A stretch of 64,000 nucleotides of DNA from an uncultured archaeon (GTDB lineage: Archaea; Thermoproteota; Nitrososphaeria; Nitrososphaerales; Gagatemarchaeaceae). Both the position numbers and the translations under genes were made by a program. The notes under the pieces are model-generated. The model saw nothing but the letters and a program-made list of their open reading frames with translations, did not search any database and had not been told where the DNA came from. Location of the stretch: the NCBI GenBank assembly GCA_963817525.1, contig CAWFOU010000007.1, forward strand, positions 768,001 to 832,000, given 5' to 3'. Position 1 is the first letter of the stretch. Every line of letters starts with the position of its first letter. This document shows positions 9,636 to 46,981 of the stretch, in pieces.

Positions 9636-10349
9636 TCATCTCTGCCGATGGCGTCGCACTTCGGCTGACGTCACGCGACCCTCGCCCTCTACGAGCACGT
9701 ATCCCCTTCCTCTTCCCAGAATTCGCCGAATGGTCTCCCTGGCATACTTTGGGTGCATCCTACGGAGTTCGCTCAGGCAGCGCCCCTCTTCGAAATGCGC
9801 TCTTCTGATATTGTCGTAGTCCCTCCTGGATACCTTCGCTCTTGACTTTTCTATCGCTGCAACGATTTTTGCTCTTCTCTTATCTTTCATCAGAGCGTCG
9901 CCTTCCGGATAGGTGAACGGAACATGAATGACGACCTTCCTCTCACGCCTTTCCCTTCGACCTGCCTCAACCTCCTCTCCAAAAATCCCGAATAGGTCGT
10001 CACCTCGAACCCTTCCCTCGTAGCAGTCGATTCCGGCCTGTGCCTCAATGGCTTTCTTGAAAAGGAACGGACGCATTGCCTTCAAGCAAAACAACACACT
10101 CTCGAATCGGCTCACCGCAACCATGTAGGCTGTTCCCTTGGAGGTCTTCAGGACGTTACTCGTAATCACACCATGCTTCTCAAGGAACCCTCGGACCATC
10201 ATAATCTGATCTCCAGACTGGTCGACAAAGATTAGGCTCAGGCTGATTTTGTAAGGCTGATTGGAAGTGTCTGAAATGACTATCGTCCCGTCGCCATCGA
10301 AGTAGCCAGCTACCTGCCTCCAGGAGGTATATTCGGTCACTCTCCACAA
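9636..10349 (-). CDS. Free-standing single-motif LAGLIDADG homing endonuclease with C-terminal HTH-like extension
   Basis: QVAGYFDGDGTI motif, FVDQS, PFLFKK; lower GC than host. Confidence 0.85.
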   Translation of the reverse strand: MWRVTEYTSWRQVAGYFDGDGTIVISDTSNQPYKISLSLIFVDQSGDQIMMVRGFLEKHGVITSNVLKTSKGTAYMVAVSRFESVLFCLKAMRPFLFKKAIEAQAGIDCYEGRVRGDDLFGIFGEEVEAGRRERRERKVVIHVPFTYPEGDALMKDKRRAKIVAAIEKSRAKVSRRDYDNIRRAHFEEGRCLSELRRMHPKYARETIRRILGRGRGYVLVEGEGRVTSAEVRRHRQR

Positions 10350-10422
10350 AGGTGGAATTGTGATAAAAGGGCAACGGTTAATAGCGGATTCTCGGATACT
10401 TCGGGACAGGTGATATTTGGCA

Positions 10423-10657
10423 TTGCCAATGGCCTTTCGTCCTCATTAACGCAGATTTAGGTGCTGAAGAGGAGCTGCTGAAGTCGCTCAGAGGGTTAGA
10501 GTTCGTTCGTGACGTCTACGTTGTCTATGGCGTTTACGACATCATTGCCAGGGTCGAGGCCGACACCATGGAGAAGGTCAAGGAGACCATCACGTGGAAG
10601 ATCCGCAGGCTCGACCGCGTCAGGAGCACCCTGACGATGATCGTCGTCGAAGGCTAA
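10423..10657 (+). pseudogene. Lrp/AsnC ligand-binding-domain protein with one extra T at 10435-10437 (frameshift or read error)
   Basis: Removing one T gives MPMAFVLINADLGAEEELL...VYGVYDIIARVEADTMEKVKETITWKIRRLDRVRSTLTMIVVEG; AGGTGA SD upstream. Confidence 0.8.
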
Positions 10658-10687
10658 GTCTCCAACAAGGCGCGTCCTACTCGCCTC

Positions 10688-11737
10688 TCAGTCTTGGACT
10701 GTGAAGTGGGATAGCACAATGTCGCCCCACTCGTCTACCGCTGCCACGGTGTAGGTACCCGGAGGGAAGAGTAGGAATGTCTCCTGGGGATGGGCAGAGG
10801 CGGAGTCGGTGACCCAGTAGCCAAAGAGGGTCGCCGAAATGCTCGCGTTCACCTGCGTGGGGTTCGTCCCATACGCCGTTGCCTCGCTGCTCTGGGGTCC
10901 GAAGATGTAGTATGAGGCTGCATTTCCCCCGCAGATCGTTTTGCCCTGGCTCAGGGGCACGGGGGTGCCCTGGGTGAAGTTTCCCAGGCCGTAGTCGCCC
11001 TGGTAGACCACGAAGTCGACCCATCCGCCGGCGCAAACACCGTTGATGGTCCAGGGTGTGACCGCCCAATCCTCCCCTGTGGAGAGGTTGTTCGCACTGT
11101 CCAGCGTGTTGACATCGTAGGCCGTCACGGTGATCGTCTGGTTGGCGGTTGCCGTGAGGTTTAGGGTGAGGCTCAGATGGGTCTGTAGGTCGAGTCTCGA
11201 CACCGAAGCAGCAGGAACCTGGATGCTGGCGACCGCGGAAGAAGACTGCACCCCGGACGTGGAGGGTGGAGGCGCTGGTTCGCCAAGGATGAATGCGGTC
11301 GAGTTGAGGAGAACGCAGTAGGCTCCCACTTCGCCCGTGAACCCCAATTCGTAGGCGCAGTTGGCCCACGGTTGACTTTGGTTGTGGTAGGGAACCACGT
11401 TGATGCCGTAGGTCGGAAACGGGAAGACATCGCTCACCACGACTTTGCTGCACGATCCACCAGGCTCTGCGGGAAAGGAAGGTGGGCAGTTGAAAACGTA
11501 GGCTGGTTGTCCCCAGCAGGGCGCGTTGCCTCCATCGCAATTCCCAGACGCTGTGATGAAATCGAACCCGTAGACGGTCAAGAGAGAGCCTGTCGTGGTC
11601 ACAGTGTTGGTCGCGGTGGTTGTAGACGTGCTCGTCGATGTCAGCGTGGTCTTGGTGCCGGACTCATAGACGGTGGTCGATGCAAGGACTATCGTCAGCG
11701 CCACGAGGAGCCCAAACAGCGCGGATTTGACGTTCAA
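10688..11737 (-). CDS. Secreted Cys-containing modular protein (PGxYT..D.WG family)
   Basis: Signal/TM, T-rich linker, GYW...FPPGTYTVAAVDEWGD..SHF. Confidence 0.8.
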   Translation of the reverse strand: MNVKSALFGLLVALTIVLASTTVYESGTKTTLTSTSTSTTTATNTVTTTGSLLTVYGFDFITASGNCDGGNAPCWGQPAYVFNCPPSFPAEPGGSCSKVVVSDVFPFPTYGINVVPYHNQSQPWANCAYELGFTGEVGAYCVLLNSTAFILGEPAPPPSTSGVQSSSAVASIQVPAASVSRLDLQTHLSLTLNLTATANQTITVTAYDVNTLDSANNLSTGEDWAVTPWTINGVCAGGWVDFVVYQGDYGLGNFTQGTPVPLSQGKTICGGNAASYYIFGPQSSEATAYGTNPTQVNASISATLFGYWVTDSASAHPQETFLLFPPGTYTVAAVDEWGDIVLSHFTVQD

Positions 11738-11816
11738 CCTTAGAGGTGTTGAGTCGGCGGGAACCTCATGAAGCTTTGGATAGTTTGTTCAGGCCGCCCC
11801 CGCGGGAGCGCGAGGC

Positions 11817-11849
11817 AGCACTTTGACGATGTTCGTCGTCGAAGCCTAG
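11817..11849 (+). repeat. Degenerate direct repeat of Lrp gene 3' end (10625-10657)
   Basis: agcactttgacgatgttcgtcgtcgaagcctag vs agcaccctgacgatgatcgtcgtcgaaggctaa, 28/33 identical. Confidence 0.85.
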
Positions 11850-11900
11850 GAATATTTTGGTCAAAGAATTATATATAATAGGAATATCCATAGATAGACC

Positions 11901-12098
11901 ATGAAGCCTTCCTTCCTGGTGGTCGCAAGAAACGGTGGGATGCTAAACAAGTTCGAGCAGGACTCGATGCTAAAGTCGTCGAACCTCAAGGACTATCTCG
12001 AAGGCCTCGGCGACTACCAGGACGTCTCGATCTTCCAGTTATCCATGAACAGCGGGATCAGCAAGGATTGGGTGAAGCTGGCCGCGTTCGAGTCCTGA
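11901..12098 (+). CDS. Small hypothetical protein
   Basis: ATG start, TTATATATAA box ~25 nt upstream. Confidence 0.65.
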   Translation: MKPSFLVVARNGGMLNKFEQDSMLKSSNLKDYLEGLGDYQDVSIFQLSMNSGISKDWVKLAAFES

Positions 12099-12112
12099 GG
12101 CAGCACAAGGAC

Positions 12113-13228
12113 TTAGGAGTAAACCCTGGCGATGGCTCGAAGCTGGGCCCTCGACATCTTGACCGGAGGAGTTCCCAGAGACTGGACGAGGACCTGCTGA
12201 TGGCTTCCGGCGCTGCCCGCCTCGCTGACCCGCTCCCCGAAGGTCTCTCCGCGGGTCGCGAACATGCTAGCGAGGAAGGTCGTATACCCGTCTGGCTTCT
12301 GCCATTCTAGTTTCTTGCCGAGCTCCTGGAAGACCTCCCAGAGAAGCGAAGGCCTCGACAATGTCTGGGTCACAGGCGGGAGGGCTGCTTTTGTTTCGCC
12401 GCTCTGGTCTTTTTTGTAAGCCCCCACCGAGCGCACAAAGCCGCCTCGGGTCGCCTCGACCGTGAGCAAGTCGTAATCCATCGTCGAGAGTGACGAAGGC
12501 CATCCCTTCGCGTCGAGCCGCACGGCCTCGACCGAGATGCGCAGCGTGCTCTCGGCCTCCGCGGAGTCGACTGGGAGCAGATACGCCCCGAGCGGCGCCG
12601 AGATGCGGACCAGCTCGCCGAACCTCGCGACGAGCGACTCCTCGGCTCCTCCAATGGTGAGGGAGGCGGCCTCGAGAACCACGAAGAGAGACGGCCCGGT
12701 GTCCCCCAAGATGACCAGTAGCGTCTCGTCTACCCCGCCCAGTACCCTGCCTGCCTGCTTCGTCGCTAGCTTCACCTCCGCCAAGGCGAACCAGTGGAAG
12801 GGGTCGAGGCTGGGCCTGAGCAGGATCGAGTCTGGCACCGGCCGCAGGGCGCCGTGGCATCCCAGCCTGATCGCCGGCGTGCCCCAGAGGAGAAGGACGA
12901 GCCCGACCCCCCCGAAGACAAAGGGCGAGAGAGTCCCGCCCTCCGCTACCGCCACCGCCGCCAGGAAGAGGAAGACCAGCCCCAGCCCACGTCGCAACGG
13001 GTGGCCGACACGGCCTCTGAAGCTCACCGGGACGACGACCTGCGTCCCTTGTCGAGGGATGGTTGGAGCCGCCACCGCGGTCGGGGGGCTCCGCCGCCCG
13101 AGGCGCAGGAGGCGGACGATAAGGCCACCAAAGGCGTAGAGGAAGAGGAGAGCCGAAACAGGCCAGCCGCCGAGCGGGAGGAGCATCAGCCCGACAATGA
13201 CCGCGAGCCCCTTGAGCAGCAGTCCCAT
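12113..13228 (-). CDS. Membrane protein with N-terminal TM hairpins and soluble C-terminal domain
   Basis: Two hydrophobic hairpins; tightly spaced with upstream ATPase genes. Confidence 0.75.
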   Translation of the reverse strand: MGLLLKGLAVIVGLMLLPLGGWPVSALLFLYAFGGLIVRLLRLGRRSPPTAVAAPTIPRQGTQVVVPVSFRGRVGHPLRRGLGLVFLFLAAVAVAEGGTLSPFVFGGVGLVLLLWGTPAIRLGCHGALRPVPDSILLRPSLDPFHWFALAEVKLATKQAGRVLGGVDETLLVILGDTGPSLFVVLEAASLTIGGAEESLVARFGELVRISAPLGAYLLPVDSAEAESTLRISVEAVRLDAKGWPSSLSTMDYDLLTVEATRGGFVRSVGAYKKDQSGETKAALPPVTQTLSRPSLLWEVFQELGKKLEWQKPDGYTTFLASMFATRGETFGERVSEAGSAGSHQQVLVQSLGTPPVKMSRAQLRAIARVYS

Positions 13229-13230
13229 GG

Positions 13231-15557: not shown

Positions 15558-15595
15558 GCGGAGAAAGGACGGAGCGGGCTTATAGAGAATTCCTC

Positions 15596-15617
15596 ACCTA
15601 AGATACTTATCTTAGGT
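15596..15617. promoter_or_regulatory. Perfect inverted repeat between divergent genes, candidate operator
   Basis: ACCTAAGATA-ct-TATCTTAGGT. Confidence 0.65.
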
Positions 15618-15624
15618 AAGTCCC

Positions 15625-15918: not shown

Positions 15919-15933
15919 GGCAACTTATCATAG

Positions 15934-23056: not shown

Positions 23057-23112
23057 CGATTATCAGGCCGACCTTCGAAAAGCTTAAGATTGAATCCGCC
23101 CCCCACAGCGGT

Positions 23113-23168
23113 CGGCGGTGGGGCTCGCCATAACCGCTCGCATTAGATTGTGAGCCAATAGCTCCTAC
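23113..23168 (+). ncRNA. Fluoride riboswitch (crcB motif)
   Basis: GGCGGTGGGGCTCGCCATAACCGCTC...GAGCCAATAGCTCCTAC; GGGGCT/AGCTCC pseudoknot; directly upstream of crcB. Confidence 0.9.
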
Positions 23169-23202
23169 AAGAACAACAAGAGCGAGCGGTGATGGGAACA
23201 AG

Positions 23203-23920: not shown

Positions 23921-24120
23921 AAACCGTCACATTAGCGGCGAGGGAGCCTAAATAGCCAACCCAACAATTCTGTCGTGGACCCGCCCGATTTCACGCGGCT
24001 TAGCTCGGAAACGGCAGAGGTAGTCGGAGCGTCGACCATGACAAAGGCCCCCTCCTCGTCGACTGCGTTCTGCTTTCCGATGGCGTAAATAGCTTCGTCT
24101 CTCGCAGTTGTGTCTCTCAG

Positions 24121-24537
24121 CTAGTTTTCGGGCTCGTCAATTCGTTCGACCGTACCATCGAAGCCTATTGAGACTGAAGAGCGCGGGAGCTTGCCAACGC
24201 CTTTGTCCACGAGCCACCTCGAGTACTTGCTGGAGTGGTGCATGCTGCGAACGTGGCGCCTGAAAGTCTCAATCGACCTGGCCGAATGGCCGCACGTGCA
24301 AATGTTGAAACCATCGGGCATCTCGAGCGTCAACACTCCCATCATGATGCTGCAGGGAAGACATCTGACCTTGACTCCCTTTGAGTGAGACGGGGAATAT
24401 ATTATCATGCCCACGTCGAGGATCCTCTGGCAGGACCAGCATCTCATCACGCCGCCGTGTCGATGGATCATAGCGGAGGAGATGCGATAGCAGTGAGCTT
24501 CCTTAGGAATGCTCGCTGTGAAGAGAACCTCCTTCAT
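24121..24537 (-). CDS. Cys/His-rich putative zinc-finger protein
   Basis: CWSC, CLPC, CTCG...HVRSMH; lower GC. Confidence 0.6.
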   Translation of the reverse strand: MKEVLFTASIPKEAHCYRISSAMIHRHGGVMRCWSCQRILDVGMIIYSPSHSKGVKVRCLPCSIMMGVLTLEMPDGFNICTCGHSARSIETFRRHVRSMHHSSKYSRWLVDKGVGKLPRSSVSIGFDGTVERIDEPEN

Positions 24538-24768
24538 TCAGAACATCACACGAGATTTTCCACCGGTCGGCTCTGTTAGGACGTTGCCGGCGCCTGATCC
24601 ATCGAACTCTACCACGAGGGAACATCAGAAGATTTGCATTAGAAACCTCTGGTGCAAGCATCTATCAGCGTGTTCGCAGGATAGACTCTGCCCCGCTCTC
24701 TGCCCTCGGACACATCTCCTAACTATCGCCACCTGAACCAGTTTACGGGTGCCTCGCTCTAGCAAGAT

Positions 24769-24786
24769 TGGTAGCGAGGGGTGGAT
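24769..24786 (-). repeat. Orphan intronless 3' end of tRNA-iMet including CCA
   Basis: Minus strand ATCCACCCCTCGCTACCA equals the spliced 3' end of the tRNA at 25275-25395 plus CCA. Confidence 0.9.
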
Positions 24787-25309
24787 AAATATCATATCCA
24801 CTTATTTTGCAGTTGGGCACCAGAGAAGCTTGGTTCGCGGGCCTGATAGACGGGGAGGGTTGTTTCACTATCGGAATCTCGCACCAACACAAGAGAGCCC
24901 TAAAATTCAGCCTGATTTTTTCGATTTCAATGAAGAGTGGAGATTGGCAAAACGGCGCACAAGAATTGCTCAGGTTCCATGATATTCCCTTTCACACCCG
25001 GTGCCGGAAGAATCAATTCGAAATAACCGTGAGCGGCCATAAATCTGTGAAGAAATTAATTGCCGTTACCAAACGGTATCTGGTAGTGAAGAAACCAGTT
25101 GCCGAAGTCCTGGCCAGCTTTCCCGTCGCCCCTGCCAGGAATAGGTTCACCGGAGTCGATAAGCGTTATCTCCGAATTGTCTGTGAGAAAGTAGACCAGG
25201 TGAGATTCTTGAACAAGGGAAAAAACAGGAAGCACAAGTGGGATGGCAGACGAATCTGGATGTTTTATGATTAATAGCGAGGGGTGGAGTTTCAGAGGGA
25301 TATCCCTCC
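24787..25309 (+). mobile_element. Putative homing cassette: LAGLIDADG gene plus replacement intron-bearing tRNA-iMet 3' end
   Basis: AT-rich nuclease gene between two copies of the tRNA 3' end. Confidence 0.7.
24807..25274 (+). CDS. Free-standing single-motif LAGLIDADG homing endonuclease
   Basis: WFAGLIDGEGCF, YLVVKK; start may be TTG 24813; stop abuts tRNA 3' end. Confidence 0.92.
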   Translation: MQLGTREAWFAGLIDGEGCFTIGISHQHKRALKFSLIFSISMKSGDWQNGAQELLRFHDIPFHTRCRKNQFEITVSGHKSVKKLIAVTKRYLVVKKPVAEVLASFPVAPARNRFTGVDKRYLRIVCEKVDQVRFLNKGKNRKHKWDGRRIWMFYD

Positions 25310-25395
25310 TTTGAACCACCGCTCTGCGGGTTATGAGCCCGCCGGGATAACCTTGCCCCTTCGGTCGGGAGAAGGTCTGGCTTCCCCACCTCGCT
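25275..25395 (-). tRNA. tRNA-iMet(CAT) with two non-canonical BHB introns (D-loop 25352-25376; T-loop 59/60 25289-25309)
   Basis: Spliced AGCGAGGTGGGGAAGCCAGGTTATCCCGGCGGGCTCATAACCCGCAGAGCGGTGGTTCAAATCCACCCCTCGCTA; A1-U72 and GGG/CCC anticodon stem; T-loop BHB TTCA/TGAA with AAG and ACT bulges. Confidence 0.93.
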
Positions 25396-40459: not shown

Positions 40460-40491
40460 TCACTCACACTTGTCATAGCCGCAATTCGTGC
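40460..40491 (-). repeat. Orphan copy of nrdJ 3' end
   Basis: Encodes TNCGYDKCE*; 24/32 identical to 41026-41057 (TNCGYSKCE*). Confidence 0.88.
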
Positions 40492-41091
40492 TGGATGGGC
40501 CGATAAATACGGCGAAGCTCTGCTATAACGTTGGCTTCTCTGAGACTCTGCAACAGGTGCAAGCGGGAATTACCGATTTGTGAATTCTATACTCAGCCAT
40601 CTGGAATCCGTCGCATCTGCAAAGAATGCGATAATGAATACTCGAGAAACTATCACAAAACACACCCCGAATACGATAAGCGATATGAGAAGGAATACGC
40701 GAGGAGGAACCCGAAGAGAAGATGGGCAACGGCTTGCTTGTCAGGCCATCGTAGAAATGGATACATCACCGAAATCACATCTAAGGAACTCTACCAGATT
40801 GCCTGCAAAACGGAACTTTGCTTCATCTGTGGATGTCAGATAGACTGGCAGCTGGGTAACAAGGGTCACATGCACAACAAGAGTCCAACCCTAGACAGGC
40901 TGGACAACGGAGATACGATTAGGAGCGGTAACGTCCTAATCATGTGCTACCAATGCAACGCGACGAAGCGCGACAGAACCTTGAAGGAGTTCCTAGACTA
41001 TTGCAGGGTCGTTACTGCAAATTTGCTACTCACACTTAGAATACCCGCAATTGGTACATTTATAGCAACCGCTTTCGAAGATTATTGCATT
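40492..41091 (+). mobile_element. Putative homing cassette: HNH-like gene plus recoded nrdJ 3' end
   Basis: AT-rich block between two copies of the nrdJ terminus. Confidence 0.65.
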
Positions 41092-41202
41092 CTCGTTGCA
41101 GTCGGGGCAAGTGCCTCCGCGCATCAGGGGTACGGACGACTCCTTGTTGACCTTGCCCGAGGTGAGGACCTCGAGCGCCTTGGCCACCGCGTCAGGGATT
41201 GA
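40531..41202 (+). CDS. Free-standing HNH/EndoVII-like endonuclease
   Basis: CNRC...CKEC zinc ribbon; CFIC...SPTLDRLDN...NV..MCYQCNATK; tail overlaps nrdJ antisense. Confidence 0.82.
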   Translation: MASLRLCNRCKRELPICEFYTQPSGIRRICKECDNEYSRNYHKTHPEYDKRYEKEYARRNPKRRWATACLSGHRRNGYITEITSKELYQIACKTELCFICGCQIDWQLGNKGHMHNKSPTLDRLDNGDTIRSGNVLIMCYQCNATKRDRTLKEFLDYCRVVTANLLLTLRIPAIGTFIATAFEDYCILVAVGASASAHQGYGRLLVDLARGEDLERLGHRVRD

Positions 41203-43317
41203 GAGCAGCTGGACCCCCTCCTCCCAGGAGACGTACTTGCCGCGGATGCCCTTTAGCATCTTCACGACGCTCTGGATGTCCCCGCCGTGCTGGAGGTAGA
41301 GGCTGATGAGCCTGCCTATAGCCTCGGCGTCGGCTTTCTCGTCGCCCCCTAGCTTGCCCAGGGTCACGAAGACCTCCTTCAGGGTGCCCGCCTCGTCCGA
41401 GTTGGCGGTGACGTAGAGCCCTCCCTGGGGCAGCTTGAGCTTCAGCGTCCGCCCGGTCATCACCTTGGGCCTCTCGAAGGCCGTGGGCGCCTCCTGCTTC
41501 GGCTCGGCCCTAGCGGCCGCCGCGCCCGCCTCCTTCTTCTTGTCGACGTTGGCCGTCTCGAGGATGCCCTCCCTGCTCCCCTCCCTGTAGACCGTGATGC
41601 CCTTGCACCCGAGCTTCCACGCCTGGAAGTAGATCTTGGCGACCTCCTCCGTGGAGGTGTCCTGGGCGAGGTTCACCGTGCTGGAGATGGCGGTGTCGAT
41701 GTGCTTCTGGATCGCGGCCTGCATCTTCACCCTCATCTCGGGCTTGATCTGGTGGGCCGTCACGAAGTACGAGGGCAGGGAGTTCTCGTCGGTGATGCGG
41801 AATACGCGCATGTACTCCTTCACGAGCGGGTGCCAGACCTTGAACTCGCCCTCGCTCAGCGACTTGCTCCTCCTCGTGTAGTATAGCGCGAAGACCGGCT
41901 CGACCCCGCTGGACGACCCCACGAAGATGGAGCCAGACCCGACCGGGGGCACCGTCGTGAGCGCAGAGTTCCTGATCCCCTGCGCCCTGATCTTGTCCTT
42001 GACCTTCGAGTCGAGCCTCTTGATGAAGGGCTGCGCCAGGTGCTTGTCAGCGTCGAAGGCGGGCGCCGGGCCCTTCTCCGTCGCGAGGTCGGTGGAGTAG
42101 TCGTAGATGATGTTCGTGATCCTGCTGAAGAGGCTGTCGACGAAGTCGACCGTCGCCTCGTCGTCGTACTTCATCCCCAGCTTGATCAGCATGTCCCCTA
42201 GCCCCGTCGTCCCGACGCCCACCCTCCTGGACCACAGGGAGGCCTTCTTCTGCTGGGGGAGCGGGTGCTTGTCGGCGTTGTAGTCGAGGACGTTGTCGAG
42301 GAACCTCGTGGCGTGCTGAGCAGCCATGGTGAGGCCGCTCCAGTCTATGCTGGCGCGGTCGGTGAACGCGTCCTTCACGAACGAGCTCAGGTTTATCGAG
42401 CCCAGGCAGCAGCAGCCGTAGTTCTCCAAGGTCTGCTCGCTGCACGGGTTGACGCCCTCCACCGCCATGCCGTTGTACTCGGTCGTCGAGTCCCTCTTGA
42501 TGGTGTCCCAGAAGATCAGGCCGGGCTCGTCGCTCTGCCAGGCCGCCTTTACGAGCTGATTCCAAACGTCCCTGGCGCGGACAGTCTTCTCGAACTTCAC
42601 CTTCTCGTTCTGGAACCTGAGGGTGAAGTCGGAGTCCTTCTCCACCGCGTTCATGAACTCGTCGGTGATCTTGACGGAGATGTTCGCATAGTTGACCTTC
42701 TTCAGGTCCTTCTTGACGTTGATGAAGTCGAAGATGTCGGGGTGGTCTACGCGCAGCGTGATCATCAGGGCGCCCCTCCTGCCCGCCTGCCCTATCGTCC
42801 CCGTCGTGGTCGATAGGAGCTCCATGAACGAGACCGAGCCGGAGCTGAAGATCGCCGAGTTGTTGACGGGCGTGCCGCGCGGCCTCAGCAGGGAGATGTC
42901 CGTGCCGACTCCGCCGCCGAAGCTGTAGGTCCTCGCCGCCTCCTTGCACCAGTCGAAGATGCCCTCTATCGAGTCTTCCCTGATCTTGAAGAAGTAGCAG
43001 TTGAGGAGCGTAGACCGCCTGGGCTGGCCTGCGCCGAACATTATCCTTCCGCCGGGTACAAATTTGAAATCGTCAAGTAGCCAATAGAACTTCTCCGTCC
43101 ATTCGTTCCTCTTCTCGTCGTTTACCTCAACCGAGGCGAGCTCGCGCGCCACCCTCCGCCAGAGCTGCTTCGGGGTCGTCTCGACCTGCTTGCCTGACTC
43201 GTCCCTCAGCGCGTACTTTTCGTAGAAGACCCGCGACCTGAGCTCGTCGCCGCCGAAAGCCTCGAGCGTCTCCTTTGGTAGGACGACCTCGGGCGCCTTC
43301 TGGAGCTGCTGCTCCAT
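41026..43317 (-). CDS. nrdJ: Class II (B12-dependent) ribonucleotide reductase
   Basis: FVPGGRI, LLNCY, RRGA, NPCSEQ, CCLGSINL, GVEP, KGITVYR, C-terminal CxxC..CxxCGYSKC; SD-supported ATG 43317 (ORF open to 43428). Confidence 0.96.
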   Translation of the reverse strand: MEQQLQKAPEVVLPKETLEAFGGDELRSRVFYEKYALRDESGKQVETTPKQLWRRVARELASVEVNDEKRNEWTEKFYWLLDDFKFVPGGRIMFGAGQPRRSTLLNCYFFKIREDSIEGIFDWCKEAARTYSFGGGVGTDISLLRPRGTPVNNSAIFSSGSVSFMELLSTTTGTIGQAGRRGALMITLRVDHPDIFDFINVKKDLKKVNYANISVKITDEFMNAVEKDSDFTLRFQNEKVKFEKTVRARDVWNQLVKAAWQSDEPGLIFWDTIKRDSTTEYNGMAVEGVNPCSEQTLENYGCCCLGSINLSSFVKDAFTDRASIDWSGLTMAAQHATRFLDNVLDYNADKHPLPQQKKASLWSRRVGVGTTGLGDMLIKLGMKYDDEATVDFVDSLFSRITNIIYDYSTDLATEKGPAPAFDADKHLAQPFIKRLDSKVKDKIRAQGIRNSALTTVPPVGSGSIFVGSSSGVEPVFALYYTRRSKSLSEGEFKVWHPLVKEYMRVFRITDENSLPSYFVTAHQIKPEMRVKMQAAIQKHIDTAISSTVNLAQDTSTEEVAKIYFQAWKLGCKGITVYREGSREGILETANVDKKKEAGAAAARAEPKQEAPTAFERPKVMTGRTLKLKLPQGGLYVTANSDEAGTLKEVFVTLGKLGGDEKADAEAIGRLISLYLQHGGDIQSVVKMLKGIRGKYVSWEEGVQLLSIPDAVAKALEVLTSGKVNKESSVPLMRGGTCPDCNENAIIFESGCYKCTNCGYSKCE

Positions 43318-43627
43318 CACCTCTCCTTCTTTTTTAGATTCAACCTCAGTTGTCAAATGTGAAATCGCGCACTCTCTCCAATCCTGACCTTTATCTGGTT
43401 CTTGGTGGACGATTCCTTCACCAGACATACCCTTAAATGTTATTTCGAGCGTGTGTTTCTCAAGAAAGCTACCGTTACCCGCGGCTTACGCTCATCATTT
43501 CATCGGTGAAGGAAAGATACTGGCATGCCCGAGTGAAAACTGGGGCCGGAGCCTTGGCGGGCTCACGTCAAACTCTGGCGGCGCTGGGGTCCTGGGAGTG
43601 ATCCGGGCGGTCCAAGAATCCCGATCG

Positions 43628-43655
43628 CATCCTGTCAACTCTAGTTGACAGGATG
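43628..43655. promoter_or_regulatory. Perfect 13-bp inverted repeat upstream of nrdJ
   Basis: CATCCTGTCAACT-ct-AGTTGACAGGATG. Confidence 0.65.
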
Positions 43656-43674
43656 TCAAACTGTTTTTGCTAAA

Positions 43675-45762
43675 TTATTCCGCTGTCGAATATTGCGCGG
43701 TGGCGGTCGACCTGCACTTGGTGCACCTCTCGGTCTTCGCGGGCAATTTTGACCCGCAGTTGCGGCAGAACGACACTATCTTCTCGATCCCGAAGAACTC
43801 GAGCTTGGCAGTCGCGCCCATCGTGAGGTTGTATATCCCGCGCATGTCGAGCGACGTCGCGTCGAGGTAGACCGACAGCCCTGCCGCGGCGCCCTGGCTG
43901 AGCTTCGAGATGTAGCCCATCGTCTCGGCGTTGTTGAGGTCCTCCATCGTCAGCCTGGCTGCCTGCGAGTATCCCCTCTTCTCCAGGCTCTGGAGGTTCG
44001 CCCTGCCATACCTCTCCGAGTCGAGTGCGGCCAGCCTCCCCGCCCCCTCCGCCTCGATGAGCGCTATCCCCAGGCGCTCGCTTTTCCCCGACCTCTCGGC
44101 TGCGGACTGCGCGGCGGTCCCCAGTACCTTCGCGGCGAGCTCCGCCCTGGCGCCGGGGGCTGCGTCCTTGCTCAGGCCGAAGAGGGCCTCGTCGAGCCCC
44201 ACCAGGTTCATCACTAGCGGCATCTCGTCGGAGCTCACGTTGTCCGACCCGAAGCTCAGCGCGGGCAGCAGCCCCTTGTTCATCACCCTCTCCAGGAGGC
44301 GCCTTCGCGTGATCAGCGCGTCCGACGCGACTCCCATGAGCATGGATAGCTTCGCCCTGAAGTACGTCTCGTCCTGGTTCGACTCGTAGGAGAGCCTCGG
44401 GAGGTTGATGCTCAGGTTGTGCAGGACGCTGACGTTGTCGGCCTGGTGGTCCGCCGGGAGGATGTCGAGGTTGATGCCCAGGGAGCTCCTCTTCTGCCCT
44501 GAGGGGAAGAACGCGACCTTCCCGCCGTGAAACGCTATCGCCGCCGCGTCCTTGAGGTAGGAGCTGTCTTCCGACTTGTTCGGTTTCGCCAACAGGAGGC
44601 GGACCTCCGGCCTCGGGACCTGCTCGACGTAGTCCCTGTATGCGTCGAGGGTCGCGGCGAGGGTCTTCTCCATGAGCTCCCGCCCCGCGTCGTCCTTGGC
44701 GTAGATGTCCAGCTGCAGGGTCACCGAAGGCCTCTGGGTGGGCTGGAGCACCGAGGAGACCTGGTCGAAGAACTTGACGAGCGCGTCTGCCACGTCGCGC
44801 TTCGTCCTCGACCTGGTGAACTGCGCGAGGTACTGGAGGAAGTTCCTGTAGACAATCTCCTGGTTCGCCTCCTTCTTGATGAGGGGGGTGATGTTTGAGA
44901 TGACGTTGATGGCCTCCTCCAGGTTCCCGGGGCTCTGGAGCATCGGGACGCCGGGAAGCCTCCCCTTAGGGTTGAACCCCGACGCGCGGACTGAGAGGAG
45001 GTCGAGGAATATCGTGTCGGGGAGGAGCGCCCACGTCCCCGCCTCCGAGATGTGGATGTCCCCGTTGAGGTGGGCGTCAGAGACGTCCCTGGGGAGCTGC
45101 TCGAGGAGGAGGTACTCGGAGAAGACGGACTTGCCCGTCTGGTGCAGCAGGGACTCCGCGTCCCCGCCGTCGCCCCCCGCCTTGGCGAGGAGCTGGGTGA
45201 CGTCGAACACGGGGAGGCCGAGTCGCGTGAGCTTGTGCCTGTACTCCTCGAGGTTCTGCTCGACGAGGAGCGAGTTGACCATCTCCCTGATGAGGGGGGC
45301 GGTCAGGTACTGGGTCTGGAACTTGTAGAGGCGGGACTCCGTCTCGCTGGTGATCTTCTGGGCGAGCTCGACGGGCATCCCCGCCTCCTTGACCAGCGAC
45401 TGGAGGATCTTGTCCGCGTTGAACTCCTCCATGGCCTGGCGGGTAGTCCTGACGTAGAGCTTCCCGCTCTCGATGAGCGACTGCTCCTCTATCTGCCGCG
45501 TGAGGTTGAGGACGAGCCTCCCGAGGTTGGTGACCGTGTACTTGCGCTCCTGCCTGTTGAGCTGGATGAGGAGCTGGCGGACGAGCTTCCTCAGGTGGTA
45601 GGCGAACTTGCCCGACTCCTTCTTCGACTTGAATCCGGCGAGCGACTTTAGCGCGCTGTAGGTGAGAGGGCCCTTGACGTTGAGTATCTTTAGGATCTCC
45701 AGCCTCTGCGGAGAGGCGATGACGCTGTAAATTGTCCTGACACGGCGAGGAGCGGCTTGCAT
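43675..45762 (-). CDS. wHTH-ATP cone-NrdD-like protein lacking glycyl-radical motif
   Basis: ArsR-like N-terminus (RLEILKIL...FAYHLRKL), ATP cone, TRLGLP, AHLNGDIH, SINLPR, CRNC/CTKC, no RxxGY. Confidence 0.85.
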   Translation of the reverse strand: MQAAPRRVRTIYSVIASPQRLEILKILNVKGPLTYSALKSLAGFKSKKESGKFAYHLRKLVRQLLIQLNRQERKYTVTNLGRLVLNLTRQIEEQSLIESGKLYVRTTRQAMEEFNADKILQSLVKEAGMPVELAQKITSETESRLYKFQTQYLTAPLIREMVNSLLVEQNLEEYRHKLTRLGLPVFDVTQLLAKAGGDGGDAESLLHQTGKSVFSEYLLLEQLPRDVSDAHLNGDIHISEAGTWALLPDTIFLDLLSVRASGFNPKGRLPGVPMLQSPGNLEEAINVISNITPLIKKEANQEIVYRNFLQYLAQFTRSRTKRDVADALVKFFDQVSSVLQPTQRPSVTLQLDIYAKDDAGRELMEKTLAATLDAYRDYVEQVPRPEVRLLLAKPNKSEDSSYLKDAAAIAFHGGKVAFFPSGQKRSSLGINLDILPADHQADNVSVLHNLSINLPRLSYESNQDETYFRAKLSMLMGVASDALITRRRLLERVMNKGLLPALSFGSDNVSSDEMPLVMNLVGLDEALFGLSKDAAPGARAELAAKVLGTAAQSAAERSGKSERLGIALIEAEGAGRLAALDSERYGRANLQSLEKRGYSQAARLTMEDLNNAETMGYISKLSQGAAAGLSVYLDATSLDMRGIYNLTMGATAKLEFFGIEKIVSFCRNCGSKLPAKTERCTKCRSTATAQYSTAE

Positions 45763-46013
45763 GTCTTCACACGCATGGAGTCTAAACTATATAATGATGA
45801 CATCACCGAGAGTCAAATAAAATCCACTCCCTCTGATGGAATGGCCGACGATATCGTAAGATTGGGCATAGTGTAGATTTCGCCCGCAGCACACGATGCT
45901 TACTTGACGAGTTCTTCCTCAGCTTGCTAAATGACCGAAGATTCTCAACCAGCTCCCAGAACTCATCGTAGCTCCTGCCTCTACGATAGACCTGCAAGAG
46001 CTGCTTGACAAGA

Positions 46014-46154
46014 TCACTTTCGATTTCTGCTAGTTCTTCGGCCAGAGCGTTTCTTTCCTCCCGACTTACCAATAATCGCTTCCACCGCTTTCTCCGCTAG
46101 CTTCCGTCGCTCCTCTTTGGACAAGCTGGAAATCTTCTCCTCGTCGCTTAGCAT
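46014..46154 (-). CDS. Small basic hypothetical protein (46 aa)
   Basis: MLSDEEKISSLSKEERRKLAEK...; GAAGGAGG SD and TTAAATA box upstream. Confidence 0.4.
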   Translation of the reverse strand: MLSDEEKISSLSKEERRKLAEKAVEAIIGKSGGKKRSGRRTSRNRK

Positions 46155-46218
46155 TCTTCAAGCTCCTCCTTCCCGCCTATTACTCGTGCTCGATATTTAA
46201 ACGGCATCGGCGTGAATT

Positions 46219-46371
46219 TGGTGGGGTCGCCCGGATTTGAACCGGGGGTCTCAAGCGCGCTCGGACTAAGCAAAAGCGATTTTGCCGTAGTCTCCCAAGG
46301 CTTGAAGCCTAGACCAGACTAGCCCCGCGACTCGAGCAGCAGCCCGATTATGCGGCCTAGCCGACGACCCC
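46219..46371 (-). tRNA. tRNA-Pro(TGG) with canonical intron (46258-46293) and non-canonical 15/16 intron (46319-46356)
   Basis: Spliced GGGGTCGTCGGCTAGTCTGGTCTAGGCTTCAAGCCTTGGGCGCTTGAGACCCCCGGTTCAAATCCGGGCGACCCCACCA; both introns form BHB motifs. Confidence 0.93.
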
Positions 46372-46416
46372 CGGCGTCCGCATGGATGGTTTTTATTAAA
46401 ACGATTCTAATCTATC

Positions 46417-46959
46417 GTGCGGGCTGTTTCAATACGCAGTTCCAGAATCGCAATAATGGCCTATCTAATCGGATTATTTGATGGCGAAGGCTGCCTGACA
46501 ATAAACGTCGAGAAAGACAAGAGGAAAGGAGCTATTTCAGAAGTCGGAGCATGGAGAATAATCCCATGCGTCCAATTCACCAATTCGGATAACGCCCTCG
46601 TCTTGGCGATTGACAGAATGCTCAAGACTCTTGGTCAGCATCCCACTATCCAAAGATATCCAAATGGGTCGGCTCACGTTAGACTCTGGCGTGCAAGTGA
46701 AATCGAGGCATTTTGTAGAGAAGCCATGATGTTTTCGAATGGCGCCAAATCGGCGCAGCTCTCCATATTCATCAACAAACTAATCCCCATTTTCGAATCT
46801 CGTCCTCTCATGGGCAAGAGAGGAGGAAGGATTTGGACCACGACGCTGTTTCTCCAAGCAATGACTCTGATAGATGAGATTAATCAATTCAAGAGAAGTC
46901 GAAGGACGGCTCGTCGTTACAGCCGGGCATACTTCGCAGCGCTCTGGAATTTGCAGTAG
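46417..46959 (+). CDS. Free-standing single-motif LAGLIDADG homing endonuclease
   Basis: AYLIGLFDGEGCL, VQFTNSD; AT-rich. Confidence 0.92.
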   Translation: MRAVSIRSSRIAIMAYLIGLFDGEGCLTINVEKDKRKGAISEVGAWRIIPCVQFTNSDNALVLAIDRMLKTLGQHPTIQRYPNGSAHVRLWRASEIEAFCREAMMFSNGAKSAQLSIFINKLIPIFESRPLMGKRGGRIWTTTLFLQAMTLIDEINQFKRSRRTARRYSRAYFAALWNLQ

Positions 46960-46964
46960 CCTCG

Positions 46965-46981
46965 GACTAGCCGACGACCCC
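46965..46981 (-). repeat. Orphan duplicate of tRNA-Pro 5' end
   Basis: Minus strand GGGGTCGTCGGCTAGTC equals first 17 nt of spliced tRNA-Pro. Confidence 0.9.

What the first reader, a model, noticed from the sequence alone, without database searches (positions are those of the whole stretch)
9636..46981. Recurring 'gene-end replacement' homing cassettes: four free-standing endonucleases, each antisense to a conserved host gene with a modified end
Seen: three LAGLIDADG genes and one HNH-like gene are AT-rich, lie outside any intein or group I intron, and are on the strand opposite the adjacent host gene (Lrp, tRNA-iMet, nrdJ, tRNA-Pro). In three, an orphan copy of the host end sits beyond the nuclease. 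The functional end next to the nuclease has a BHB intron (tRNAs) or A/T-rich synonymous codons (proteins). Established: phage free-standing homing endonucleases spread by cutting alleles lacking immunity, and introns can supply that immunity (collaborative homing). Inference: one chromosomal archaeal strategy in which the cassette supplies an uncuttable gene end, which could explain how non-canonical tRNA introns spread.
Basis: partly seen in the sequence, partly recalled or inferred. Interest (0 to 1): 0.93.

Follow-up and report, generated by a model that had tools for sequence, protein, structure and literature searches.

The report
Nuclease cassettes that replace gene ends
In a soil thaumarchaeon, small selfish nuclease genes sit at the ends of two tRNA genes and two protein genes, each bringing a substitute copy of the gene end and leaving the original end as a stub, a layout known from fungal mitochondria but apparently not from archaea or tRNA genes.

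Summary
Four AT-poor-GC free-standing nuclease genes lie antisense to a stand-alone Lrp/AsnC ligand-domain gene, tRNA-iMet, nrdJ and tRNA-Pro: three LAGLIDADG and one endonuclease-VII/HNH-like. Three are flanked by a 14-28 nt copy of the host gene end, and a weaker fourth copy exists for Lrp.

Comparison with about 45 related genomes shows real gene-end replacement. The stub beyond the nuclease matches the native allele of relatives. The end in use is foreign or altered: it carries an intron at the junction, AT-rich codons, or a 1-nt insertion.

The iMet nuclease type occurs in 8 genomes, always with a T-loop intron and a stub. Genome-wide, 9 of 11 free-standing LAGLIDADG genes abut tRNA genes.

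Introns at the same sites are far commoner than nucleases (T-loop intron in 18 of 25 alleles, nuclease in 4; D-arm intron in 16 of 28, nuclease in 2). No cleavage or RNA data exist.

The closest known systems are fungal mitochondrial mobile-ORF gene hybrids and phage collaborative homing. This is a new variant of a known kind.

The parts
9612..9652 (+). Possible orphan of the Lrp-like gene's native leader and first four codons. It overlaps the 3' end of N1.
   Evidence: An 11-nt match to the conserved start region (TGCCGATGGCG), plus leader similarity to the nuclease-free relatives G006 and G020. Weak: found only in this genome.
9636..10349 (-). N1, a free-standing single-motif LAGLIDADG-type nuclease gene (237 aa) with a basic C-terminal extension, divergent from the Lrp-like gene.
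   Evidence: VAGYFDGDG motif. I-CreI match at E 0.02. Paralogs pass PF14528. Homologs of 52-61% identity lie at the same place in 6-7 other genomes. GC 0.52.
10350..10435 (+). Upstream region, start codons and extra T of the Lrp-like gene, inferred to be cassette-borne. The start codons are TTG at 10423 and ATG at 10429. The extra T at 10435 puts them out of frame with the body.
   Evidence: The upstream motif gcaaYggttaWtac is shared by 14 of 29 family loci and differs from the TATA region of G006, G018 and G020. No in-frame start exists.
10436..10657 (+). Body of the stand-alone Lrp/AsnC ligand-binding-domain gene (73 codons plus stop).
   Evidence: PF01037 at E 9.9e-12. Protein 100% identical in G006 and G018.
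24766..24786 (-). Orphan 3' end of tRNA-iMet (T-stem 3' strand, acceptor 3' strand, CCA and flank). It abuts the TATA-like box of N2.
   Evidence: Direct repeat. Identical at 21 of 21 nt to the native 3' end and flank of G020.
24807..25274 (+). N2, a free-standing single-motif LAGLIDADG nuclease gene (155 aa), convergent with tRNA-iMet.
   Evidence: PF00961 at E 1.7e-7. A profile of 4 homologs hits solved LAGLIDADG enzymes, including full-length I-CreI-type chains. Same architecture in 8 genomes.
25275..25395 (-). Resident tRNA-iMet(CAU) gene with two non-canonical introns: D-loop 25352-25376 and T-loop 25289-25309. Its discriminator base abuts the N2 stop codon.
   Evidence: Partial Rfam tRNA match at 25294-25359. 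ARAGORN calls tRNA-Met(cat) only after the two introns are removed. The fold gives a cloverleaf plus intron hairpins.
40460..40489 (-). Orphan of the last 9 codons and stop of nrdJ.
   Evidence: 28-nt repeat at 82%, read by eye. An equivalent orphan with GC-rich codons lies at the same offset in G020. None was found in the 25 other loci examined.
40531..41202 (+). N3, a free-standing endonuclease-VII/HNH-type nuclease gene. Homology with relatives ends near 41025; the frame stays open antisense to the nrdJ tail.
   Evidence: phrog_1035 at E 3.9e-25, residues 4-162. Homologs of 65-76% identity lie at the same place in G020, G018, G006 and G053.
41026..43428 (-). nrdJ-type ribonucleotide reductase gene. 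Its last 20 or so codons (41026 to about 41100) are AT-richer.
   Evidence: Pfam RNR domains. GC3 is 0.93, then 0.80, then 0.45 towards the stop.
46219..46371 (-). Resident tRNA-Pro(UGG) gene with a D-arm intron (46319-46356) and a canonical intron (46258-46293). CCA is encoded.
   Evidence: Partial Rfam match at 46230-46325. ARAGORN calls tRNA-Pro(tgg) only after the introns are removed. Orthologs lie at the same syntenic place in 28 family loci.
46372..46416 (.). AT-rich spacer between tRNA-Pro and N4. Its role as a shared divergent promoter region is inferred.
   Evidence: Sequence read. No experiment.
46417..46959 (+). N4, a free-standing single-motif LAGLIDADG nuclease gene (180 aa), divergent from tRNA-Pro.
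   Evidence: PF14528 at E 1.8e-7. No close homolog in 40 relatives. Only 3 homologs (55-63% identity) among 5.8 billion proteins.
46963..46981 (-). Orphan 5' end of tRNA-Pro (first 15-17 nt), still preceded by the native upstream region next to the glycosylase gene.
   Evidence: 19-nt repeat at 95%. Its first 17 nt match the intron-free allele of G006.

Best explanation
These are free-standing homing-endonuclease cassettes that stay harmless by a route other than splicing. Each cassette is inserted inside the end of a conserved host gene and carries its own substitute copy of that end, so the gene stays whole. The host's original end is pushed beyond the nuclease gene and remains as a non-functional stub.

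The substitute end differs from the native sequence exactly where the stub breaks off:
- tRNA-iMet: a short protein-spliced intron in the T-loop.
- tRNA-Pro: a short intron in the D-arm.
- nrdJ: AT-rich synonymous codons.
- The Lrp-like gene: a new upstream region plus one extra T.

Inferred mechanism, in steps:
1. The nuclease cuts the unmodified allele at that point.
2. The break is repaired from a cassette-bearing allele, using the gene body on one side and the short conserved gene end (the stub) on the other.
3. Nuclease, substitute end and protective change are copied together.
4. Neither copy in the carrier recreates the target.

Later recombination between the resident end and the stub would delete the nuclease and leave the intron behind.

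What is shown: the architecture, its recurrence, the native character of the stubs, the foreign character of the resident ends, and the patchy distribution. What is inferred: cleavage specificity, immunity, the repair route, and any role in spreading introns.
For: ARCHITECTURE IN THE WINDOW.
- All four window loci show the layout.
- Stubs are present at 3 loci, and weakly at a 4th.
- The chance rate of an exact flanking repeat of 14 nt or more is 31 of 3000.

STUBS ARE NATIVE, RESIDENT ENDS ARE FOREIGN.
- The iMet stub equals the G020 native end at 21 of 21 nt.
- In G054, L135 and L136 the resident T-stem strand is CCTCC but the stub has CCACC, as in G054's congeners.
- In G018 and G045 a second nuclease type (PF14528) has displaced an older 3' part. 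That part still carries the T-loop intron and is now the stub. The cassette supplies a new T-arm.
- The nrdJ stubs in G000 and G020 have native-type codons.

CO-OCCURRENCE.
- The N2 type with T-loop intron and stub is present in 8 of 8 genomes.
- N3 occurs in 5 of 28 nrdJ loci. These have GC3 of 0.45-0.65 in the last 20 codons and show four of the five largest drops relative to upstream codons.

MOBILITY.
- N2 is 56-59% identical to homologs whether the neighbouring HD gene is 82% or 56-57% identical.
- N4 is absent from 40 relatives.
- N1 is absent from the three closest relatives but present, at 52-61% identity, in 6-7 genomes of other genera. One copy is frameshifted, one is a 30-aa remnant, and six loci keep the cassette-type upstream motif with no nuclease.

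GENERALITY.
- 9 of 11 free-standing LAGLIDADG open frames in this genome lie within 150 nt of a tRNA gene. The maximum in 20000 permutations was 3.
- Further stubs lie at a tRNA-Val locus (36 nt, L005) and perhaps a tRNA-Gln locus (10 nt, L007).
- At tRNA-Pro, G018 and G010 show stubs with a different nuclease-like ORF.

SPLICING MACHINERY AND PRECEDENT.
- Two splicing-endonuclease genes are present. This fits the broad-specificity heteromeric enzyme that the review PMC4090602 ascribes to Thaumarchaeota (passages).
- The same layout (inserted foreign end, endonuclease ORF, native end) is documented in fungal mitochondria (PMC3630166, passages).
Against: - No cleavage, expression or splicing data. 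No RNA run holds the locus.
- Introns at the same sites are much commoner than nucleases: T-loop intron in 18 of 25 iMet alleles with N2 in 4; D-arm intron in 16 of 28 tRNA-Pro alleles with a nuclease in 2. The introns may simply be older than the nucleases and unrelated to them.
- The nearly identical tRNA-iMet and introns of G000 and G006 (95% over 152 nt) fit vertical descent of that cassette rather than recent homing.
- The four main N3 carriers are one clade, so the codon signal rests on about two independent events. G048 (0.55), which lacks N3, also has a low-GC3 tail.
- The low GC3 could instead reflect the antisense N3 reading frame that overlaps the nrdJ tail.
- Several nuclease-adjacent tRNA genes here have no stub (L001, L002, L004, L006, L008). 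Three of the adjacent genes have no intron: the L005 tRNA and both L006 tRNAs.
- The intron junctions do not show a textbook bulge-helix-bulge in minimum-energy folds.
- No nuclease-free allele of the same strain was seen in four soil runs.
Confidence: 0.6

Rival explanations
1. Introns first, nucleases as later lodgers. The non-canonical introns are old, vertically inherited features of this tRNA-intron-rich lineage. The nuclease genes landed beside or inside gene ends by illegitimate recombination that happened to duplicate a few bases. The coincidence with intron sites reflects only where insertion is tolerated. Neither introns nor recoding have anything to do with immunity or spread.
For: - Introns at the same sites occur in 14 genomes each with no nuclease.
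- Intron gain and loss is rampant at sites with no nuclease at all, such as the anticodon stem, the canonical site and the T-stem.
- Three nuclease-adjacent tRNA genes here lack introns (L005 and both in L006).
- The tRNA and introns of G000 and G006 are 95% identical, while the nucleases are only 56% identical.
Against: - It does not explain why the nuclease is never found without the change (N2 8 of 8, N3 5 of 5).
- It does not explain why stub boundaries sit within 0-2 nt of the intron site in 8 genomes.
- It does not explain why whole T-arms are replaced with compensatory changes (G018, G045, G054).
- It does not explain why G054 carries an intron variant unlike its congeners together with the nuclease.
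Confidence: 0.2
2. The nuclease genes lie inside very large protein-spliced introns. The distal 'orphan' is the true exon, and the proximal gene end is a redundant duplicate inside the intron.
For: - For tRNA-Pro and tRNA-iMet in this genome, either copy would give the same mature tRNA.
- The Pro stub keeps the native upstream region and 3 of 4 bases of the helix next to the splice site.
- For the Lrp-like gene, joining the stub's ATG GCG to the body would restore the frame.
Against: - In G054, L135 and L136 the stub's T-stem strand cannot pair with the resident 5' strand.
- In G018 the stub has no partner strand.
- The resident ends are perfectly complementary and conserved in all carriers.
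- The nrdJ stub lies after the stop codon and beyond an antisense gene.
- G046 and G050 have the frame problem but no stub.
Confidence: 0.07
3. The nuclease genes are inactive relics or domesticated DNA-binding proteins, for example regulators of the neighbouring genes. On this view the arrangement is a frozen accident, no longer mobile.
For: - N1 and its paralog carry C-terminal extensions; the paralog's matches helix-turn-helix models.
- N3 divergence (66-76%) is close to that of neighbouring proteins (68-82%), as expected for vertical inheritance.
- One N1 homolog is frameshifted and one is reduced to 30 aa.
Against: - The acidic residue at the catalytic motif position is kept in N1, N2 and N4.
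- ORFs are intact in 8 of 8 N2 carriers.
- Distribution across genera is patchy, with N4 unique to this genome.
- Different nuclease families overwrite one another at the same tRNA.
Confidence: 0.08
4. Artefact: a mis-assembly of a metagenome bin, or attachment-site duplications left by integrase-driven elements.
For: The genome is a 15-contig bin with 8.75% estimated contamination.
Against: - Contigs from four public runs bridge the junctions at 99% identity or more.
- The same architecture recurs in independent assemblies of other species.
- The 500-610 nt inserts hold only the nuclease gene and no integrase.
Confidence: 0.02

Closest known systems
Fungal mitochondrial mobile-ORF gene hybrids: atp6 of Allomyces macrogynus (Paquin et al. 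1994, seen only as cited) and atp6, atp9, cox2 and nad3 of Glomus sp. (Beaudet et al. 2013, PMC3630166; passages read)
   Same: An endonuclease ORF is inserted near a gene end together with a foreign copy of that end. The native end persists downstream as a duplicate. The native copy resembles close relatives more than the inserted copy does.
   Different: Here the setting is an archaeal chromosome. Both 5' and 3' ends are replaced, and tRNA genes as well as protein genes are hit. The nuclease is on the opposite strand rather than in phase with the host gene. The duplicates are only 14-36 nt. In the tRNAs the junction is masked by a protein-spliced intron.
Collaborative homing of the free-standing endonuclease F-CphI with the ORF-less psbA intron of cyanophage S-PM2. 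The mechanism is recalled; PMC6083498 was seen in a search listing and abstract only.
   Same: A free-standing nuclease gene sits beside a gene whose intron interrupts the presumed target. N3 matches an endonuclease-VII-type family, the catalytic type reported for F-CphI.
   Different: The introns here are not self-splicing group I introns; they are removed by the cellular splicing endonuclease. A duplicated gene end is present. Cleavage has not been tested.
Free-standing Seg and Mob endonucleases of phage T4: SegB in the tRNA gene region, and MobE beside nrd genes. PMC2790892 and PMC13096335 were seen in a search listing and abstracts only; details are recalled.
   Same: Intron-less homing with co-conversion of flanking markers. 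tRNA genes and ribonucleotide reductase genes are the targets.
   Different: T4 immunity rests on sequence polymorphism without duplicated gene ends. The T4 enzymes are GIY-YIG or HNH types in a phage, not LAGLIDADG in a cellular chromosome.
Large-scale tRNA intron gain in Thermoproteales (Fujishima et al. 2010, seen only as summarised in the review PMC4090602; passages read)
   Same: A lineage with many non-canonical and multiple tRNA introns, rapid turnover, and a broad-specificity splicing endonuclease.
   Different: The review states that the mechanism of that intron transposition is unknown and mentions no nuclease ('homing' occurs 0 times in it). Here nuclease cassettes sit at the intron sites of some tRNA genes.

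Membership tests
LAGLIDADG homing endonuclease (single-motif, I-CreI-like) | LAGLIDADG motif with an acidic residue at its catalytic position | tested here: met
   N1 VAGYFDGDG, N2 FAGLIDGEG, N4 LIGLFDGEG.
LAGLIDADG homing endonuclease (single-motif, I-CreI-like) | Profile match to the family | tested here: met
   N2 matches PF00961 at E 1.7e-7 and N4 matches PF14528 at E 1.8e-7. The N2 profile hits solved LAGLIDADG enzymes down to E 2.3e-10. N1 is only inconclusive: no Pfam hit, I-CreI at E 0.02, though its paralogs pass PF14528.
LAGLIDADG homing endonuclease (single-motif, I-CreI-like) | Site-specific cleavage of the allele that lacks the element | not testable with these tools
   Needs purified protein and target DNA.
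LAGLIDADG homing endonuclease (single-motif, I-CreI-like) | Patchy, host-incongruent distribution with degenerate copies (homing cycle) | tested here: met
   N4 is absent from 40 relatives. N2 identity is 56-59% regardless of host distance. For N1 there are intact, frameshifted, remnant and nuclease-free cassette states.
Endonuclease VII / HNH (His-Me finger) free-standing homing endonuclease | Profile match to the nuclease family | tested here: met
   phrog_1035 'endonuclease VII' at E 3.9e-25 plus 8 PHROGs labelled HNH endonuclease. No Pfam or NCBIfam nuclease hit and no hit to a solved structure.
Endonuclease VII / HNH (His-Me finger) free-standing homing endonuclease | Catalytic His-Me finger residues in place | not tested
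   No residue-level alignment to a characterised enzyme was made.
Mobile-ORF gene hybrid (fungal mitochondrial type) | Endonuclease ORF inserted at a gene end together with a second copy of that end | tested here: met
   iMet, nrdJ and Pro. Lrp weakly. Also L005 in this genome.
Mobile-ORF gene hybrid (fungal mitochondrial type) | The displaced copy resembles close relatives; the copy in use is divergent | tested here: met
   The iMet stub matches G020 at 21 of 21 nt. G054, L135 and L136 show a T-stem mismatch between stub and resident. The nrdJ stubs keep native-type codons.
Mobile-ORF gene hybrid (fungal mitochondrial type) | Endonuclease ORF on the same strand as the host gene, often in phase with it | tested here: not met
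   All four window nucleases are antisense. Same-strand cases exist in relatives at tRNA-Pro.
Collaborative homing (free-standing nuclease plus ORF-less intron) | Intron interrupts the gene at the presumed cleavage site beside a free-standing nuclease gene | tested here: met
   The stub boundary, used as a proxy for the break point, lies within 0-2 nt of the intron site for N2 (8 of 8 genomes) and N4.
Collaborative homing (free-standing nuclease plus ORF-less intron) | Nuclease cuts the intron-free allele and spares the intron-bearing allele | not testable with these tools
   Biochemistry is needed.
Collaborative homing (free-standing nuclease plus ORF-less intron) | Intron is a self-splicing group I intron | tested here: not met
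   The introns are 21-38 nt. Rfam finds no group I intron.
Archaeal protein-spliced (bulge-helix-bulge) tRNA intron | Removing the insert restores a standard cloverleaf | tested here: met
   ARAGORN finds tRNA-Met(cat) and tRNA-Pro(tgg) only after removal. Intron-free orthologs exist in relatives.
Archaeal protein-spliced (bulge-helix-bulge) tRNA intron | Two 3-nt bulges separated by a 4-bp helix at the splice sites | tested here: inconclusive
   Minimum-energy folds give intron hairpins flanked by internal loops, not a textbook motif. Relaxed motifs are accepted by heteromeric enzymes according to PMC4090602.
Archaeal protein-spliced (bulge-helix-bulge) tRNA intron | Splicing endonuclease of the broad-specificity type encoded in the genome | tested here: met
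   Two separate PF01974 genes (E 1.7e-26 and 8.5e-22). The subunit arrangement itself is inferred.

The most novel reading that the evidence does not exclude
Homing-endonuclease cassettes act as a ratchet that creates non-canonical tRNA introns in archaea.
1. A homodimeric LAGLIDADG enzyme targets the near-palindromic DNA of a tRNA arm.
2. The cassette survives only if its substitute gene end carries a short protein-spliced intron, or a compensated stem, at the cut site.
3. Homing uses the tRNA body and the 14-17 nt stub as universal homology arms, so it works across species whatever the flanks.
4. Repair from the resident copy alone, or later recombination between the resident end and the stub, leaves the intron without the nuclease.

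This would explain why introns outnumber nucleases. It would also supply the missing mechanism for tRNA intron 'transposition'. The Lrp-like gene's extra T would be the same trick paid for by +1 ribosomal frameshifting.
Probability: 0.3. Interest if true: 0.9.

Novelty: new variant of a known kind. Interest (0 to 1): 0.78.

Why it matters
How archaeal tRNA genes acquire introns at non-canonical positions is an open question. The review PMC4090602 (passages) says the mechanism is unknown. The main functional idea it reports is protection against integrating viruses.

This lineage offers a concrete, testable system. It has defined nucleases, defined presumed targets (intron-free alleles exist in sister species), and a natural series of states at the same tRNA genes:
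- naive allele
- intron only
- intron plus nuclease plus stub
- allele overwritten by a second nuclease

It also shows a way for a homing endonuclease gene to be harmless other than by riding in an intron or an intein or sitting between genes. That way is replacement of the gene end, so far documented in fungal mitochondria. Here it operates in a cellular chromosome and on RNA genes.

The enzymes would be new LAGLIDADG specificities for conserved tRNA sequences.

Tried and rejected
- ARAGORN on the window found no tRNA, and Rfam at gathering scores found neither tRNA. Both tRNAs were recovered only with relaxed Rfam scans and by hand.
- Pfam and NCBIfam gave nothing for N1 and N3. PDB sequence search gave only weak I-CreI matches for N1 and nothing useful for N3.
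The genomic context of the three N4 homologs therefore could not be seen.
- Two metagenome scans for N4 relatives found no locus.
- No RNA holder is listed for the locus, so expression and splicing are untested.
- Laying four soil runs showed no nuclease-free joint of the same strain. The one 'joint' (46258 to 46965 with 38 other letters, run X2) is the tRNA-Pro of another organism, because its flank differs.
- A hand search for a textbook bulge-helix-bulge at the T-loop intron failed. The minimum-energy folds are not decisive.
- L009, first counted as free-standing, is an intein inside a 623-aa frame and was dropped. L010 and L011 (open frames of 410 and 403 aa) and L012 were not analysed further and are not in the count of 11.
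- L003 was not searched for a stub.
- The 10-11 nt repeat at L007 is no more than chance would give (312 of 3000 random intervals have 11 nt or more). Only its position at the tRNA 5' end speaks for it.
- Rows dropped before counts:
  - tRNA-Pro: 2 of 30 family loci gave no full gene (L021 and L038). In the genus scan my motifs found nothing in L142 and L143.
  - iMet: 4 of 29 loci lacked the 5' motif (L051, L052, L056, L073).
  - nrdJ: 2 of 30 loci were truncated (L101, L102). L089 had too little downstream DNA for the stub search.
- Integrase, transposon and mis-assembly readings were considered and set aside (see rivals).
- Supplementary files of papers were not consulted.

Full report
WHAT THE WINDOW IS. 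The window is bases 768001-832000 of a 1.28-Mb contig in a 2.82-Mb, 15-contig archaeal genome bin of about 61% GC. It holds an archaeal RNase P RNA. Relatives of one of its nuclease genes are found only in Nitrososphaerales/Thaumarchaeota metagenome genomes, among them 'Candidatus Gagatemarchaeum stordalenia'. The organism is therefore a soil or peat thaumarchaeon of that group. DNA runs that hold the stretch are soil, bog and peat metagenomes (only the four best were laid).

THE OBSERVATION.
- N2 (24807-25274, +) and N4 (46417-46959, +) pass Pfam LAGLIDADG models.
- N1 (9636-10349, -) has the motif VAGYFDGDG and a weak I-CreI match (E 0.02). It has two paralogs in the genome that pass PF14528.
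- N3 (40531 onward, +) matches the phage family phrog_1035 'endonuclease VII' at E 3.9e-25. Homology with its relatives ends at about residue 165, exactly where the nrdJ stop codon lies. The frame then merely stays open antisense to nrdJ.
- The four open frames have 47-52% GC. None is part of a longer frame, and Rfam finds no group I intron.

The hosts lie on the opposite strand. They are a 73-codon stand-alone Lrp/AsnC ligand-domain gene (PF01037), tRNA-iMet, nrdJ and tRNA-Pro.

ARAGORN and Rfam's gathering thresholds miss the two tRNA genes, because each has two introns. Relaxed Rfam scans find their cores. After removal of 25352-25376 and 25289-25309, ARAGORN calls tRNA-Met(cat). After removal of 46319-46356 and 46258-46293, it calls tRNA-Pro(tgg). 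Without removal it finds nothing.

Direct repeats that copy the host gene end flank three nucleases:
- iMet: 20 nt at 90%, with a 14-nt exact core.
- nrdJ: 28 nt at 82%.
- Pro: 19 nt at 95%.

Exact flanking repeats of 14 nt or more occur at 31 of 3000 random intervals. Contigs from four public runs of one soil study bridge all junctions of the N3 and N4 loci at 99% identity or more. They may include the source sample.

COMPARISON AT tRNA-iMet. The neighbouring HD-domain gene located the locus in 27 of 30 family genomes. The tRNA 5' motif was found in 25 of 29 loci. Introns occur at four sites: the D-loop, the canonical site, the T-stem and the T-loop.

- The T-loop intron is in 18 of 25 alleles. 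N2-type nucleases are in 4 of these (G000, G006, G048, G054), each antisense and each followed by a stub of the tRNA 3' end.
- A scan of 185,579 species genomes found 6 N2-type loci. All 6 have the T-loop intron and a stub about 503-510 nt from the resident end, preceded by a TATTTA box. Allowing for duplicates, this makes 8 genomes, and the pattern holds in 8 of 8.
- The stub and flank in this genome are identical, at 21 of 21 nt, to the native intron-free 3' end of relative G020.
- In G054, L135 and L136 the resident T-stem strand is CCTCC while the stub has CCACC. G054's congeners G024 and G049 have CCACC and a different intron variant. The resident end therefore came in with the nuclease, and the stub is native.
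- In G018 and G045 a different LAGLIDADG protein of about 225 aa (PF14528) sits between a complete tRNA-iMet with a new T-arm and a stub. That stub is the older 3' part, T-loop intron included. In G018 its intron is letter for letter that of this genome's resident copy.
- The locus is thus overwritten repeatedly.
- N2 is 56-59% identical to its homologs whether the HD neighbour is 82% identical (G006) or 56-57% identical (G054, G048).

COMPARISON AT tRNA-Pro. The 3-methyladenine glycosylase gene located the locus in 28 of 30 family genomes. I extracted 28 alleles.

- A D-arm intron after position 15 is present in 16 and absent in 12. Other introns come and go at the anticodon stem and the canonical site.
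- N4 has no close homolog in 40 relatives and only three homologs (55-63% identity) among 5.8 billion proteins.
- The stub's first 17 nt match the intron-free allele, as in G006. The resident copy has the intron after nt 15.
- Two other genomes of the genus (G018, G010) carry a stub of the 5' 33-45 nt. Next comes an ORF of 259-273 aa with two LAGLIDADG-like motifs on the same strand as the tRNA, and then a complete tRNA-Pro. These ORFs have no Pfam hit.

COMPARISON AT nrdJ. N3 homologs (65-76% identity) lie antisense at the nrdJ stop in 5 of 28 loci examined: G000, G006, G018 and G020, which are one clade, plus G053, where the copy is split.

- GC3 of the last 20 codons in these five is 0.45, 0.65, 0.60, 0.50 and 0.65, against 0.82-0.98 further upstream. 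Most nuclease-free genomes have 0.70-0.95. The exceptions are G048 at 0.55 and two genomes that are low throughout.
- A stub of the gene end is found in G000 and G020 only, out of 27 loci searched, and at the same offset. In G020 it has GC-rich native-type codons.
- The signal is real but rests on about two independent events. It could also reflect the antisense reading frame.

COMPARISON AT THE Lrp-LIKE GENE. The protein is 100% identical in G006 and G018. It normally starts MPMAF.

- Fourteen of 29 loci share a distinctive upstream motif. Eight of these have an N1 homolog divergent from the gene: six intact including this one, one frameshifted, and one a 30-aa remnant. Six keep the motif with no nuclease.
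- The three closest relatives have neither the motif nor the nuclease. Their leader resembles 9612-9652 here, which lies beyond N1. This is a weak fourth stub.
- Instead, four genomes of four genera (G000, G023, G046, G050), all cassette carriers, have one extra T between codons 4 and 5. No in-frame start remains.
- The site reads TTT CGT in the zero frame. Both are rare codons here: TTT 3.7 per thousand against TTC 34.6, and CGT 3.0, the rarest Arg codon. One base on, it reads TTC GTC.
- This looks like a +1 frameshift site and possibly an immunity indel. That is inference.

GENOME-WIDE VIEW. Pfam scans of the genome find many LAGLIDADG domains (31 matches), most of them inside long frames, that is, inteins.

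- Of 11 free-standing open frames, 9 lie within 150 nt of a tRNA gene. No more than 3 did so in 20000 random placements.
- The other two abut the Lrp-like gene and the 3' end of a ferredoxin-like gene.
- A 36-nt stub (33 of 36) of an intron-free tRNA-Val gene lies beyond an N1 paralog (L005). A 10-nt stub of a tRNA-Gln gene sits where that gene has an intron (L007), but a repeat that short is not beyond chance.
- Five adjacent tRNA loci showed no stub.
- Two splicing-endonuclease genes are present.

HOW IT MOST LIKELY WORKS.

Shown: a nuclease gene plus a substitute gene end sits inside the end of a conserved gene. The native end is displaced. The substitute differs from the native sequence at the break point. 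The arrangement recurs, is patchy, decays, and is overwritten.

Inferred:
1. The nuclease cuts the unmodified allele at the point where the stub breaks off.
2. Repair copies the cassette, using the gene body and the short conserved end as homology.
3. The intron, the recoding, or the indel keeps both copies in the carrier from being cut.

Single-motif LAGLIDADG enzymes act as homodimers on near-palindromic sites (general knowledge of the family). tRNA arms are such sites, which may explain the strong tRNA association. Recombination between the resident end and the stub would remove the nuclease cleanly and leave the intron. This would fit introns being commoner than nucleases, but so does the simpler view that the introns are older.

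WHAT IS KNOWN.
- The same layout (inserted foreign C-terminus, endonuclease ORF, native C-terminus) is described for fungal mitochondrial genes. There the native copy likewise resembles relatives (PMC3630166, passages; it cites Paquin 1994).
- Free-standing nucleases that rely on a neighbouring intron for immunity are known from cyanophage. Free-standing nucleases at tRNA and nrd genes are known from T4. For these I saw listings and abstracts; the details are recalled.
- Three full-text searches found no paper linking free-standing nucleases to archaeal tRNA genes or tRNA introns. A fourth search found the fungal precedent.
- The review PMC4090602 calls the mechanism of tRNA intron transposition unknown, and the word 'homing' does not occur in it.
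- Supplementary files were not seen.

VERDICT. The gene-end replacement reading is well supported. Immunity and intron spread are plausible but untested, and the simple co-occurrence prediction fails in one direction. This is a new variant of a known kind, of high interest to people who work on homing endonucleases and archaeal tRNA introns.

Noticed in passing
window 10423-10440; also L112 (G023), L114 (G046), L123 (G050): The highly conserved Lrp/AsnC ligand-domain gene has one extra T after codon 4 in four genomes of four genera, all carrying the N1-type cassette. No in-frame start codon remains. The zero frame reads the rare codons TTT CGT, and one base on it reads the common TTC GTC. This is a candidate +1 ribosomal frameshift site.
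   Followed up: partly
whole genome G000: Nine of 11 free-standing LAGLIDADG open frames abut tRNA genes. The genome also holds many LAGLIDADG domains inside long frames (inteins); PF14528 gave 31 matches in all.
   Followed up: partly
L048 (G018) 196-885 and L053 (G045) 613-1278: A second LAGLIDADG family (PF14528) at tRNA-iMet has displaced an older, intron-bearing 3' part and supplies a new T-arm with compensatory stem changes.
   Followed up: partly
L019 (G018) 628-1404 and L151 (G010) 2391-3209: ORFs of 259-273 aa with two LAGLIDADG-like motifs but no Pfam hit lie on the same strand as tRNA-Pro. Each sits between a 33-45 nt 5' stub and a complete gene.
   Followed up: partly
whole genome G000; window 49578-49714: Rfam finds only 33 tRNA matches in the genome, 27 of them over the cut-off. 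That genome scan did not list the 137-nt intron-bearing tRNA at window 49578-49714, which the window scan had found. Many tRNA genes are evidently disrupted by multiple introns.
   Followed up: no
window 24000-24800: The low-GC island around N2 extends about 700 nt further. It holds a Cys-rich 138-aa ORF (24121-24537, minus strand) with no family match. This may be another mobile gene.
   Followed up: no
window 45780-46210: A low-GC stretch (0.52-0.53) lies between the nrdD-like gene and tRNA-Pro. It holds short ORFs (for example 45803-46072, minus strand) of no clear family.
   Followed up: no
window 46982-47020: The native upstream region of tRNA-Pro, conserved with G018, is still in place before the stub. 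The stub may therefore be transcribed into antisense RNA across N4. This is inference only.
   Followed up: no
L003 (G000:C1:1098000-1101500) 1009-2009: A free-standing LAGLIDADG open frame lies convergent with the 3' end of a 151-aa 4Fe-4S ferredoxin-like gene. It was not searched for a stub.
   Followed up: no
window 23105-23174, 3508-3795, 56402-56520: A fluoride riboswitch, an archaeal RNase P RNA and a 5S rRNA gene. These are ordinary features.
   Followed up: no
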